Below are positions 41,983-44,900 of a stretch of DNA of 64,000 nucleotides, piece by piece. Position numbers: made by a program. Source of the stretch: Octopus vulgaris (lineage: Eukaryota); the NCBI GenBank assembly GCA_951406725.2, contig OX597815.1, positions 67,704,001 to 67,768,000 of the forward strand. Reading direction: 5' to 3'. How positions within the stretch are numbered: position 1 is the stretch's first letter; every line of letters begins with the position of its first letter.

Positions 41983-44900
41983 GGATGGATAGATATACAT
42001 ATATACGTGTGTATTAGTTGAATTTTATATGTTTATTTCGATGATTGAAATTTTTCATGGTGTTCACATTGTTCATGGGAGTTACTGCATTGGAAAAATT
42101 TGGTATTGCAAAATAGCTTGCCTGAAGCGAATTCATGATCAAGAGAAAATACTTACTTACTATCAACGTTTTGCCTATTTTGGGGGATAAAAAGTAAAGA
42201 TTTTTACCTTTTATTTATAGAAAATAGATTATATTACAGAATTTTCTTGGTGTGCTTCTTTTTGAATTTAATTTGCCTATTTTATTAAAATATTAATTTT
42301 TGAGTTAACTGCCGTATTTAAATTGTTTCGTAGTAAAAACTTATGAAAATCACTTGCTTAAACCTTTGTGCAGATTCTTGAGAATATTAGGCGGATCATT
42401 TGCTACATTTTTCATATATAGTATTGTATCATTAGGTTTCACGTACAGTTGAAATGTACCCTTATTTACGTCAAAAATCAATCCAAAACACTAATATTTT
42501 TTAACTACTTATTGTTATTTTAAGGTCCAGATCTTTGAATAGTTCGGTCAATTATTTCTTTGGCCGTTCAATTTATTAGAAACTGAAAGACTATCATCTC
42601 TGTGTATTCCTCCATAGACTGAAGGAAATTCCTAGAATAGATGTAGTTGTGTAGATGTTGCGTCAGTCATACTCGCATCAAAAATGTGCGTGTTATTTGA
42701 CTTTATCTAAATACTACTATCATAGACATGAATAGATTTCCTTTCGTGCATTATAATTTGTATTTCCTTATCTATAATAACTGTGAAGTTTCATGAAATG
42801 AAGATCTATCAATAAGATTTGCTTTGTTATATACGAATAGTAATTCACTATGTCAAATAATGTGAAAACAGACAAAAAATCTTTTATCTCCGATAGATGA
42901 AACCAACTAATTAGAAATCAGCTGTTTTCCCACAGAGCCAGACAAGTACATTTTTACCTCCGCCAAGGAAGGAAGTTATGTTTTCATCTGCGTTGGTTTA
43001 TCCGTCTGTCTTTCTGAGTGCATAATAACTCAGACAGTTGTGAGCGGTATTTTATGAAACTTGCAGGAAAATTTGGTAATGACACAAGAAACAGATGATG
43101 AAATTTTGGTAGTGATCTGGGAATTTTTATGGATTCTTGAAGGATTTTTCATTTGTTATATTTACATTACATTAAGTATTACAAAGTTACGTTCTTTGAT
43201 TATCTCCCTTAAAAACACGTTCACCGTTTCCACGTAACCTATGATGGCGTTGCTGTTTCCAAAGTTTATTTTCGTTTCTCTATTAGTCATTTTACTCACG
43301 TATCTATCTTAAAATGAGCTTGGTGGAGGTCTGCGCTCTCCGAGTGCTTTCCTAGTATTATAGTGTTATCGATTCTGTATCTAATACAGTTTTGCTTATT
43401 CTACCAAGTTCTATTTTCGTATGTTTAATAAGACGAATGTTGGGATTACTCATAAAATTAGGTTTATTACCCTTAATAGTAACATTTACCTTTTTAAATC
43501 TAGGATCTGTCATCATTGAGACTAGAGACTTTAAGTTTGCGTTCCTTATTTATCCGGCGTTTTCTTATACTTGATGCTAATATATCTTTCAACAAATCAT
43601 TTTACACGTTATATCTTCTTTTCATAAACTTTTCTGGTTTTTATAAGCTTCGCAATCTTTCTCCAACTTTCTAATATTCTTCAAATTTCTAAGTGATTTC
43701 CTTCAAGAAGCGATTGAATTTGTTTTGTGTTTTTTCCTTCAACTTTAAATCCTGTTACATTTTGAAAATATCTCTCTCAAAGGTTTTAGTTGTTTATTCC
43801 CTGATGGACATCTAGTTCTCAGGTCCTAATTTATTGCTTTCGTTCTGTCTATTTTATTAATTTTGTCAAAAGAGAATGCCTTCCTTTTCATTCTTTTCAT
43901 TAGATTTTCCAGACTATATATTTTTCATAAACTGTTTGTAAGGTTAACCTATATTCTTGGCTCATGTGCCAATCGGAAGTATGCTTATTACTTTAGTTAT
44001 GCTTGGAGGTAATAAAGATGAGTTTAATAAAAAAAAAATATGGACTATAGAATCTAAAAATTATGGATATATAAATCTAGCTTTATAAGATGCTATCTAC
44101 GTTGAAAGTCAACAGAGTTTGCTTTAGAAGCTTTGAGATGTATTGAAAGATACAGATAAGGAAATAATTTTATTCTCAAACGCAGGATACTGCTAATAAT
44201 ATAGCACGAACAGAATAAACTATACATATTATGCAGAAAAATCTGTCGGCGGCCAGCCATGAGACTCAAACTCACATCTTTCAATACATCTCAACGCTTC
44301 TAAAGCAAACCTGTTTGTTGACTTTCGACGTAAGTTGAATTTAACGTACGATATAAAACTAGATTTATATATCCTAAATTTACAGAAGAATTTGTGGTTG
44401 GGGCAGTTTAGCTTAATGGCAAAAAAGCACTTGACGCGTAATCACAGGGTTATGAATTCGTGTCTCATGTTTGGCCGCCGACAGATTTTTCTGCAAAATA
44501 TGGATAGTTCATCCTGTTCATGCTATATTATTAGCATTATCCTGTGTTTGAGAATAAAATTATTTCCTTATCTGTATTTTTCAATGTATCTCAACGCTTC
44601 TAAAGCAAACGTTTTTTGCTGACTTTCAACGCAAGTTGAATTTATATATAATTACTTGTTTCAGTCAATAGACTGTGGCCATGCTGGAGCACCGCATGCA
44701 CACACACACACACTCACACACACATATATATATGTCAGTATGTATATATGTACGTGTATATATATAAAGATATATATATACCAGAGTAAGCACATGAATG
44801 TGAAACAAGGTGGAAAAAGAAAGTACTCGAATACCGGAGGTAGAGTAATATGCTTTATTATTAAAGCTGCAAAAGCATCACAAAGAACTTACTCAGAGTT

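What the first reader, a model, noticed from the sequence alone, without database searches (positions are those of the whole stretch)
44045..44650. tRNA-Thr-like gene carried in a 300-bp permuted unit with PLE-type inversion
Seen: the tRNA-like sequence lies in the middle of the unit, with upstream flank and a TTTTT terminator 10 nt downstream, unlike a SINE where the tRNA is the 5' end. The unit repeats at exactly 300 bp, and the inverted arm crosses the unit junction, implying a multimeric or circular template. No hammerhead is visible. Inference: a retrozyme-like non-autonomous element using a tRNA (Pol III promoter and/or RNase P/Z processing) in place of a ribozyme, which would amplify tRNA-like genes.
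Basis: partly seen in the sequence, partly recalled or inferred. Interest (0 to 1): 0.75.

Follow-up and report, generated by a model that had tools for sequence, protein, structure and literature searches.

The report
Decayed tRNA-like repeat cluster, Penelope-style layout
A roughly 600-base patch of an octopus-like genome holds three worn partial copies of one 300-base repeat with a weak tRNA-like piece, laid out as Penelope-type retroelement insertions are; it could not be shown here to be a mobile family or a new kind of element.

Summary
The repeat geometry is real. A 68-69 nt direct repeat lies at a spacing of 300/301 bp. A 175-179 nt inverted arm (88-90% identity) runs across the unit junction into a ~43-nt stretch that the tandem junction also carries. 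The two orientations meet head to head at 44274-44279. A T5 run starts 10 nt after the tRNA-like stretch, and no hammerhead core is present.

The "tRNA-Thr gene" is weak. The Rfam tRNA model gives 13.9 bits against a threshold of 29. ARAGORN calls it only at relaxed thresholds, where simulated sequence gives as many calls.

The layout is an inverted 5'-truncated copy, then a partial tandem copy, then a full unit, with a ~43-nt extension at one outer end only. This matches the published anatomy of Penelope-like element (PLE) insertions, and the right end abuts a short (TA) run.

Homology between the two junction-bearing copies stops 15 nt before the tRNA-like start. The tRNA-like part may therefore be the 5' head of a linear, SINE-like unit, and no circular or multimeric template is needed.

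There is no second copy in the 64 kb window. No eukaryotic genome collection was on hand, so copy number, which is the decisive test, stays unchecked.

My best reading is an old, dead insertion of a short non-autonomous retroelement, possibly PLE-mobilised (confidence about 0.4). Interest is modest.

The parts
44053..44099 (-). Outer (3') end of the inverted copy. It continues past the body end into the ~43-nt 'tail' that the tandem junction also carries, with a 12-nt indel.
   Evidence: I3 (44053-44087 vs 44352-44386, 86% of 35 nt); alignment.
44100..44274 (-). Inverted, 5'-truncated copy of the unit. It runs from the 3' half of the tRNA-like T arm through the body and includes the conserved run of five (A5 at 44237-44241 on the + strand).
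   Evidence: I1; blastn E 2.7e-60; 157 of 175 aligned bases identical; alignment.
44275..44279 (.). Head-to-head inversion junction. A few bases here can be assigned to either copy.
   Evidence: Arm ends; nhmmer envelope to 44280; read from the sequence.
44276..44343 (+). Direct 5'-truncated partial copy (the last 68 nt of the body), in the position of a pseudo-LTR upstream of the full unit.
   Evidence: D2 and D4. It is closer to the inverted copy (51 of 54 aligned bases) than to the downstream direct copy (49 of 57).
44344..44386 (+). 'Tail' or linker between the tandem copies. The left outer end of the cluster shares it; the right outer end lacks it.
   Evidence: Alignment A1; I3.
44387..44401 (+). 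15 nt between the end of the inter-copy homology and the tRNA-like start. The true 5' end of the unit lies somewhere in here.
44402..44476 (+). tRNA-like stretch. It has an intact D arm, a 3-of-5 anticodon stem, a 4-of-5 T stem and a 5-of-7 acceptor stem, with G in place of the usual U before the anticodon.
   Evidence: Rfam tRNA 13.9 bits, threshold 29, model 1-71. ARAGORN finds it only at relaxed thresholds.
44486..44490 (+). T5 run, terminator-like for RNA polymerase III. It is kept in 2 of 2 copies that cover this position.
   Evidence: alignment.
44477..44644 (+). Body of the full direct unit. Homology to the upstream partial copy ends at 44644.
44644..44650 (.). Short (AT)3A run abutting the right end of the cluster.
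   Evidence: Read from the sequence.
44652..44695 (-). 44-nt 3'-end fragment of a different SINE-like family, followed by a (CA)n(TA)n microsatellite (44696-44790). This is flank, not part of the unit.
   Evidence: blastn to 15815-15858 (84%) and relatives at 3629-3678, 48075-48106 and 58695-58730; TRF and Rfam low-complexity hits.

Best explanation
This is an old, inactive composite insertion of a short (~300 bp) non-coding, non-autonomous retroelement. Its 5' part derives from a tRNA gene together with that gene's run-of-T terminator.

The three pieces are:
- an inverted 5'-truncated copy (44053-44274);
- a direct 5'-truncated copy (44276-44386);
- a full direct unit (44402-44644).

I infer that they were laid down in one integration event of the kind made by Penelope-like elements. 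In that event cDNA synthesis from both sides of the target, together with template jumps, leaves a partial tandem (pseudo-LTR), a head-to-head inverted copy and a tail at one end only.

Shown: the anatomy and the weak tRNA-likeness. Inferred: reverse transcription, the PLE partner, a single event, and an age of very roughly 15 million years.
For: Anatomy:
- Three abutting partial copies have no foreign DNA between them.
- Both junction ends are 5' truncations, at different unit positions, meeting head to head at 44274-44279.
- Both 3' ends point outward.
- A ~43-nt extension is present at the left outer end and at the tandem junction but absent from the right outer end.

Context:
- The same paper's supplementary table lists (TA)n as the insertion preference for 4 of 4 octopus PLE families. 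The right end of the cluster abuts (AT)3A, and a (CA)n(TA)n microsatellite lies 50 nt away.
- The window is octopod-like. The one named protein hit is from Octopus sinensis.
- Octopus genomes carry active Penelope families: 31 recently active PLE families are listed for O. vulgaris (PMC13282606, table passage).
- Non-autonomous PLE derivatives that make pLTRs and head-to-tail multicopy insertions are known (PMC8557442; preprint 10.64898/2026.07.22.740005, abstract and passages).

tRNA ancestry:
- The match covers the full tRNA model at 13.9 bits, about 2e-3 expected for the tRNA family alone in the 621-nt finding (my scaling).
- 0 of 2 control 106-nt stretches from other SINE-like repeats in the window gave any tRNA hit.
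- The T arm of the inverted copy pairs better (5 of 5) than that of the direct copy (4 of 5), as expected if both decayed from a better tRNA.

Against an assembly artefact: the arms differ at 18 of 175 aligned bases, so this is not a palindrome made by assembly.
Against: - No second copy exists in 64 kb, by blastn with word size 9 or by nhmmer with a single sequence and with a profile. Mobility is therefore unproven.
- No PLE reverse transcriptase was found among 152 ORF translations scanned. These were 17 and 135. Of 255 ORFs of 70 aa or more, 80 were dropped as low complexity. Of the 175 kept, the 25 beyond 55.1 kb were not sent; separately covered four ORFs in that region. Similarity of the 3' end to an autonomous partner could not be tested.
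- The extension is about 43 nt, slightly over the 30-40 nt quoted.
- The copies differ by 10-13%. One event is an assumption, and DNA-level duplication could give the same picture.
- Local inverted pairs are common in this window (11 rows, several of them unique sequence). An inverted arm alone is therefore not special here.
- A T5 kept right after the tRNA-like part would stop polymerase III before the body. A SINE-type transcript of the whole unit is therefore hard to get, and another promoter has to be assumed.
- No clear target-site duplication is visible, though PLE papers report the same difficulty at microsatellites.
Confidence: 0.4

Rival explanations
1. This is a local DNA-level rearrangement of non-mobile sequence. 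A short tandem duplication, or a remnant of a small decayed tRNA-gene array or satellite, was partly duplicated in inverted orientation by a replication template switch or fold-back repair, and then decayed.
For: Only one locus exists in the window. The copies are 10-13% diverged. Local inverted pairs with 100-300-nt arms are frequent in this window. A tRNA-like stretch followed by its own T5 10 nt downstream looks like a gene locus rather than a SINE head.
Against: This needs at least three separate steps (tandem duplication, inverted duplication, loss of the tail at the right end) to give what one PLE-type event gives. Both inner ends look like 5' truncations of a unit whose outer ends fall close to one defined terminus. 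There is no long array.
Confidence: 0.27
2. This is an ordinary tRNA-derived SINE moved by a LINE. A 5'-inverted (twin-priming) insertion sits next to, or nested with, a second copy.
For: The tRNA-like part may be the 5' head. The genome is SINE-rich: 11.6% SINEs and 893 unclassified recently active SINE families in O. vulgaris (PMC13282606 passages). LINE fragments (zf-RVT) lie in the window at 19715-20020 and 27496-27705. The left flank ends in an A10 run 14 nt away.
Against: The full-length direct copy lacks the 3' tail that the other two copies carry, and target-primed reverse transcription starts at the 3' end. The unit has no A-rich or simple-repeat tail. The abundant SINE of this window, by contrast, sits in (ATT)n-linked arrays. 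The inverted and direct pieces overlap by about 106 nt instead of being adjacent parts of one RNA. A conserved internal T5 is also present.
Confidence: 0.13
3. One reading: a retrozyme-like element copied from a multimeric or circular RNA, in which the tRNA-like fold (polymerase III promoter and/or RNase P/Z cleavage) does the job of the hammerhead.
For: The 300-bp, 34% G+C unit has tandem and inverted copies, as in animal retrozymes (about 300 bp, under 45% G+C; PMC7229834 passages). No hammerhead is present. A tRNA-like stretch is present.
Against: The acceptor stem pairs at only 5 of 7 positions, and the match scores 13.9 bits. The unit shows no exceptional fold: z -1.77 and -1.66. A 13-bp helix that encloses the tRNA-like part is matched or beaten in 12% of 300 simulated sequences. 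The ends of the copies are compatible with a linear unit that has fixed termini. RNase P/Z products (5' phosphate, 3' hydroxyl; established knowledge) are not the ends that the RtcB-type ligase joins in retrozyme circularisation. Naiad PLEs spread without canonical hammerheads, so a missing ribozyme needs no substitute.
Confidence: 0.08
4. This is a miniature LTR element of the TRIMp3/Helenus kind (a tRNA-like sequence inside the LTR) in a short tandem array, or a MITE/foldback element with long inverted termini.
For: Helenus elements carry a tRNA-like sequence inside a repeated unit, occur in molluscs (bivalves), and one family forms tandem arrays (PMC10886601 abstract and passages). A purine run lies just upstream of a TG at 44383-44394. 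Inverted arms are present.
Against: The repeated segment does not begin with TG or end with CA. No primer-binding site could be named. Helenus is reported from bivalves, not cephalopods. For a MITE the two outer ends should be mirror images, but the left arm carries about 46 nt that the right arm lacks, and an extra internal direct copy must be explained.
Confidence: 0.07

Closest known systems
Penelope-like element insertions and their non-autonomous derivatives (for example MRC1 of Chlamydomonas, and animal non-LTR retrozymes)
   Same: A partial tandem copy sits upstream of a full unit, an inverted 5'-truncated copy lies head to head, an extension of a few tens of bases is present at one end only, and the cluster lies next to (TA)/(CA) simple repeats. 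The unit is about 300 bp with low G+C, like animal retrozymes.
   Different: There is no hammerhead core. No similarity to a PLE 3' end or pLTR has been shown. A tRNA-like stretch with its own T5 is present; the retrozyme/PLE preprint read here does not contain the word tRNA. Only one locus was seen.
tRNA-derived SINEs (octopus OR1, OR2 and OK of Ohshima and Okada 1994; seen only as a citation, paper not read)
   Same: A tRNA-related stretch lies possibly at the 5' end of a ~300-bp non-coding unit, in a genome rich in SINEs.
   Different: A T5 is conserved 10 nt after the tRNA-like part. There is no A-rich or simple-repeat tail. The full copy lacks the 3' tail. The layout is tandem plus inverted. 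No sequence comparison with those SINEs was possible.
TRIMp3 elements (Helenus, Ajax, Cassandra): miniature LTR retrotransposons with a small-RNA gene in the LTR
   Same: A small-RNA-like module with promoter-like and terminator-like parts sits inside a repeated unit and not at a free 5' end. Tandem arrays occur.
   Different: No TG...CA ends, no identified PBS or PPT pair, and no LTR-retrotransposon features. Helenus is reported from bivalves, with a tRNA-Lys-like module there.

Membership tests
Functional tRNA gene | Reaches the curated score of the tRNA covariance model or the default tRNA finder | tested here: not met
   Rfam tRNA 13.9 bits against a gathering score of 29. 0 matches at gathering score. 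ARAGORN default finds 0 genes.
Functional tRNA gene | Intact cloverleaf and canonical anticodon loop | tested here: not met
   In the Rfam alignment the acceptor stem pairs at 5 of 7, the anticodon stem at 3 of 5 and the T stem at 4 of 5. The base before the anticodon is G. That this base is normally U is recalled.
tRNA-derived SINE | tRNA-related head at the 5' end of the unit | tested here: inconclusive
   Homology between the two junction-bearing copies ends 15 nt upstream of the tRNA-like start. This is compatible with a 5' head, but only one junction is available.
tRNA-derived SINE | A-rich, simple-repeat or LINE-like 3' tail, with a complete 3' end in every copy | tested here: not met
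   The shared tail 44344-44386 has no A-rich or simple repeat, and the full direct copy ends without it.
tRNA-derived SINE | Many dispersed copies with target-site duplications | not testable with these tools
   0 further copies in the window.
Animal non-LTR retrozyme | Short tandem monomers (150-450 bp) of low G+C | tested here: met
   Spacing 300/301 bp and 34% G+C, but only about 1.23 direct copies plus 0.75 inverted. Definition taken from PMC7229834 passages.
Animal non-LTR retrozyme | Type I hammerhead ribozyme in each monomer | tested here: not met
   No hammerhead or other ribozyme family at E up to 10 in 43900-44800. No CUGANGA on either strand. A decayed or minimal variant cannot be excluded.
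Animal non-LTR retrozyme | Expressed as small circular RNA | not testable with these tools
   No expression data. Fold z-scores of -1.77 and -1.66 give no sign of a rod-like RNA.
PLE-type insertion / non-autonomous PLE | Partial tandem (pseudo-LTR) upstream of a full unit | tested here: met
   44276-44386 precedes 44402-44644. Definition from PMC8557442.
PLE-type insertion / non-autonomous PLE | Inverted 5'-truncated copy adjacent to the upstream pLTR | tested here: met
   44053-44274 is inverted, and its truncated 5' end abuts 44276.
PLE-type insertion / non-autonomous PLE | [quoted passage not shown] | tested here: met
   A ~43-nt extension is at the left end (44053-44099, with an indel) and at the tandem junction, and is absent after 44644. 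It is slightly longer than quoted.
PLE-type insertion / non-autonomous PLE | 3' end or pLTR shared with an autonomous PLE of the same genome | not testable with these tools
   No PLE RT among the 152 ORFs scanned. The supplement of PMC8557442, as held, gives protein sequences and hammerhead tables in the passages I searched; I saw no nucleotide consensus there.
PLE-type insertion / non-autonomous PLE | Insertion at (TA)n or other microsatellites | tested here: inconclusive
   (AT)3A at the right end, and (CA)n(TA)n 50 nt away behind a SINE fragment. The left end has no such run. The genome is AT- and microsatellite-rich.
TRIMp3 / Helenus | LTR pair ending TG...CA, with a PBS after the 5' LTR and a PPT before the 3' LTR | tested here: not met
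   The repeated segment starts ATCTTT and ends GAATTTA. One purine run lies before a TG at 44383-44394. A PBS cannot be judged without the host's tRNA set.
MITE / foldback element | Mirror-image termini flanked by a fixed-length target duplication | tested here: not met
   The left arm extends about 46 nt beyond the point where the right arm ends, and no duplication beyond a trivial TATA is visible.
Satellite DNA | Long head-to-tail array | tested here: not met
   No 300-bp array by Tandem Repeats Finder. Only a 69-nt overlap.

The most novel reading that the evidence does not exclude
The unit belongs to a multi-copy family of ribozyme-free non-autonomous partners of octopus Penelope-like elements. 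The family would carry a captured tRNA gene (promoter boxes plus terminator) at its head. This would be a 'tRNA-headed PLE-SINE' that inserts as tandem/inverted composites at (TA)n, and that might shed a ~90-nt tRNA-like polymerase III transcript from every copy or use tRNA-processing enzymes to cut unit-length RNA.
Probability: 0.1. Interest if true: 0.7.

Novelty: new variant of a known kind. Interest (0 to 1): 0.35.

Why it matters
PLEs are abundant in invertebrates, and their integration mechanism is still undefined. Their known short dependants, the retrozymes, are recognised by a hammerhead.

A confirmed family with the PLE insertion layout, a tRNA-derived head and no ribozyme would show three things. 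PLE machinery can be hijacked by SINE-like RNAs. Hammerhead-based screens miss part of the PLE-dependent repertoire. Some of the hundreds of 'unclassified SINEs' in octopus may not be LINE-driven. It would also be a source of false tRNA-gene predictions.

If the unit turns out to be single-copy, the locus is simply a decayed local rearrangement of no wider interest.

Tried and rejected
- tRNA finders. ARAGORN default found 0 genes. Its relaxed settings were rejected as evidence because simulated sequence gives as many calls.
- Rfam. Nothing at gathering score in the whole window. Within 43900-44800, only microsatellite look-alikes of microRNA families and two weak hits of no weight.
- Hammerhead core search: none.
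- RNA folding of the unit on both strands and of the 94-nt tRNA-like transcript: z -1.77, -1.66 and -0.38, not distinctive. The 13-bp helix around the tRNA-like part was rejected as chance, since it is matched or beaten in 12% of 300 simulations.
- More copies in the window. blastn with word size 9 and nhmmer with a single sequence and a profile found none.
- Flanks. The left flank 43000-44060 has no relatives in the window, so no empty site is available.
- The 119-codon open frame 44263-44622. No Pfam family and no relative among 4 candidates in the protein collection, so it gives no indirect sign of further copies.
- Looking for a PLE in the window. No RT domain was found in 152 ORFs.
- The GIY-YIG-like ORF at 34725-35258 was followed as a possible PLE endonuclease and was not shown to be one. 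Its relatives are mostly short stand-alone proteins. 0 of 10 relatives checked have any Pfam family at E up to 0.001, RT included. No longer relatives were found (weak evidence).
- Comparison of that ORF with the Naiad endonuclease sequences printed in a paper's supplement was left out, because those letters are neither the window's nor a stored protein's.
- Literature. I found no description of a tRNA standing in for the ribozyme of a retrozyme in searches. Only listings were seen for most papers; passages were read in PMC7229834, PMC8557442 and the 2026 preprint.
- Not used or not available. The bioRxiv supplement tables of the 2026 preprint were closed. The supplement of PMC13282606 was listed but not read; it may bear on whether this unit is an annotated octopus repeat family.
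Full report
**What the window is.** It is 34% G+C, full of microsatellites and SINE-like repeats, and has no tRNA or other Rfam family at curated thresholds. The only named protein relative found belongs to Octopus sinensis, at 62% identity over 48% of a 177-aa ORF. Two repeat families also look octopus-like to me, but that is recalled and not tested. I treat the window as octopod nuclear DNA. It holds no run of N.

**The observation.**
- A direct repeat, 44276-44343 and 44576-44644, lies at a spacing of 300 and, after one indel, 301 bp. 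It has 60 matches, 8 mismatches and 1 gap position, with E 2e-17.
- An inverted repeat, 44100-44274 and 44453-44631, has 157 matches, 18 mismatches and 4 gap positions, with E 2.7e-60.
- The inverted copy does not stop at the end of the body. Read in reverse, 44099-44053 continues into the stretch that in the direct orientation (44344-44386) separates the partial copy from the full unit. The match is 86% over 35 nt, with a 12-nt indel before it.
- T5 lies at 44486-44490, and the inverted copy keeps it as A5 at 44237-44241.
- There is no hammerhead or other ribozyme family, and no CUGANGA on either strand.
- The arms differ at about 10% of positions, so this is not an assembly palindrome.

**The tRNA-like part.** This is the weak point of the observation.
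- ARAGORN finds nothing at default settings. At 85% and 80% thresholds it calls Thr(CGT) at 44401-44479.
- At those settings the whole window gives 5 and 23 calls, while 40 simulated windows give means of 4.55 and 25.8. The call carries no weight, and neither does 'Thr'.
- The Rfam tRNA model is silent at gathering score and in a 901-nt search. It appears only when 106 nt are searched: 13.9 bits (threshold 29), E 1.4, full model length, at 44402-44476.
- Scaled by me, that is about 3e-4 expected for the tRNA family alone in those 106 nt and about 0.2 in the whole window.
- The alignment shows a perfect D arm, a T stem of 4 of 5 pairs, an anticodon stem of 3 of 5 and an acceptor stem of 5 of 7.
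- Two control stretches of the same length from other SINE-like repeats gave no tRNA hit (0 of 2).
- The partial T arm kept in the inverted copy pairs at 5 of 5 positions. This suggests both copies decayed from something more tRNA-like.
- I conclude that tRNA ancestry is likely (about two in three) but not proven, and that this is not a working tRNA gene.

**Where the unit begins.** Only two copies contain the junction region.
- Their similarity ends at 44386 in the direct copy and at 44053 in the inverted copy. Beyond these points the sequences are unrelated.
- The tRNA-like match starts at 44402, 15 nt further on.
- The data therefore fit a linear unit: a tRNA-like head (from about 44387-44402), a body to 44644, and a ~43-nt tail.
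- On that reading the 'upstream flank' is the tail of the preceding copy. The cluster is then an inverted 5'-truncated copy with tail (44053-44274), a direct 5'-truncated copy with tail (44276-44386), and a full-length direct copy without tail (44402-44644).
- A circular or multimeric template is possible but not required.

**What it resembles.** Craig et al. 2021 (PMC8557442; I read passages and part of the supplement) describe PLE insertions as follows.
- They are highly 5'-truncated.
[quoted passage not shown] - They show a bias for microsatellites. The supplementary table gives (TA)n for 4 of 4 octopus families listed.

The cluster meets the first four of these features. Its right end abuts (AT)3A, and a (CA)n(TA)n tract lies 50 nt away behind a 44-nt fragment of another SINE.

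Further context from the literature:
- The same paper notes that Naiad PLEs lack canonical hammerheads, and that non-autonomous relatives make pLTRs and head-to-tail multicopy insertions.
- Cervera and de la Peña 2020 (PMC7229834, passages) define animal retrozymes as ~300-bp, low-G+C tandem monomers with a type I hammerhead.
- A 2026 preprint (10.64898/2026.07.22.740005, abstract and passages) derives retrozymes from PLE pLTRs and does not mention tRNA.
- Bonar et al. 2026 (PMC13282606, abstract and passages) list 31 recently active PLE families and 893 unclassified SINE families in O. vulgaris.
- Kojima 2024 (PMC10886601, abstract and passages) shows that a tRNA-like module inside a repeated unit is known from miniature LTR elements (Helenus). 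Those are reported from bivalves and have LTR, PBS and PPT features that I do not find here.

**Best explanation and its limits.** I take the cluster to be one old composite insertion of a short non-autonomous retroelement with a tRNA-gene-derived head, made by PLE-type integration.
- The anatomy is shown. Reverse transcription, the partner and the single event are inferred.
- If the three pieces arose together, the pairwise Jukes-Cantor distance of about 0.11 (from 18 differences in 175 bases) gives about 0.055 per copy. On the scale used for O. vulgaris (0.065 for 18 My), that is very roughly 15 My.
- The conserved T5 is awkward for a SINE-type polymerase III transcript of the whole unit. 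Either another promoter drives the template, or the tRNA module is a passenger.

Against the whole reading:
- There is no further copy in 64 kb.
- No PLE reverse transcriptase is available in the window to compare with.
- Inverted pairs are common here.
- A purely DNA-level origin cannot be excluded.

The abundant SINE of this window forms tandem arrays in a different way, through (ATT)n tails. The unit shows no such linker.

**What stayed unchecked.** The supplements of the preprint were closed, and that of PMC13282606 was not read.

**Verdict.** The structure is real. The tRNA gene claim is overstated. The PLE-type layout is a good and specific match. The 'tRNA instead of ribozyme, circular template' mechanism is unsupported.

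Scores:
- Interest: 0.35.
- Novelty: at most a new variant of a known kind, conditional on the family being multi-copy.

Noticed in passing
window 34365-35860: A 177-aa ORF (34725-35258, minus strand) has a weak GIY-YIG match (Pfam 19.1 bits, below the cut-off of 22.6). It is bracketed by 139-nt inverted repeats that are 98% alike (34391-34529 and 35466-35604). (TA)n lies directly to the left, and a (TA)54 tract lies at 35750-35857. Its relatives form a large family of mostly short stand-alone proteins (1766 representatives at E up to 0.001), and the best named one is from Octopus sinensis. 0 of 10 relatives checked carry an RT or any Pfam family. It may be a young mobile unit of unknown type, and it was not shown to be a PLE.
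   Followed up: partly
window 44909-45819: A second inverted structure lies right next to the finding. One arm, 44909-44970 plus 45183-45278, is split by an insertion of the abundant SINE. The other arm is 45679-45819. The arms are about 84% alike with a ~400-nt spacer, and they are unrelated in sequence to the 300-bp unit.
   Followed up: partly
window 76-2732, 26356-26940, 28071-28703 and elsewhere: The abundant SINE-like family (20 matches to 44954-45190) often sits in head-to-tail arrays linked by (ATT)n/(TAT)n tracts. One example is the period-230 array at 1188-1691. This suggests repeated insertion into the simple-repeat tails of earlier copies.
   Followed up: partly
window 4821-5911, 9734-10169, 55106-55602: Further local inverted pairs of unique sequence: 302 nt at 74%, 99 nt at 97% and 110 nt at 87%, with spacers of 240-500 nt. 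They are MITE-like or foldback-like.
   Followed up: no
window 19715-20020 and 27496-27705, minus strand: Two short ORFs match the zinc-binding region of reverse transcriptases (zf-RVT, 26.1 and 29.1 bits). They are probably 3' fragments of LINEs.
   Followed up: no
window 47735-47807: This is the only ARAGORN call at the 90% threshold in the window (Tyr, GTA). It lies inside a 233-codon open frame on the other strand (47707-48408) that has no Pfam match.
   Followed up: no
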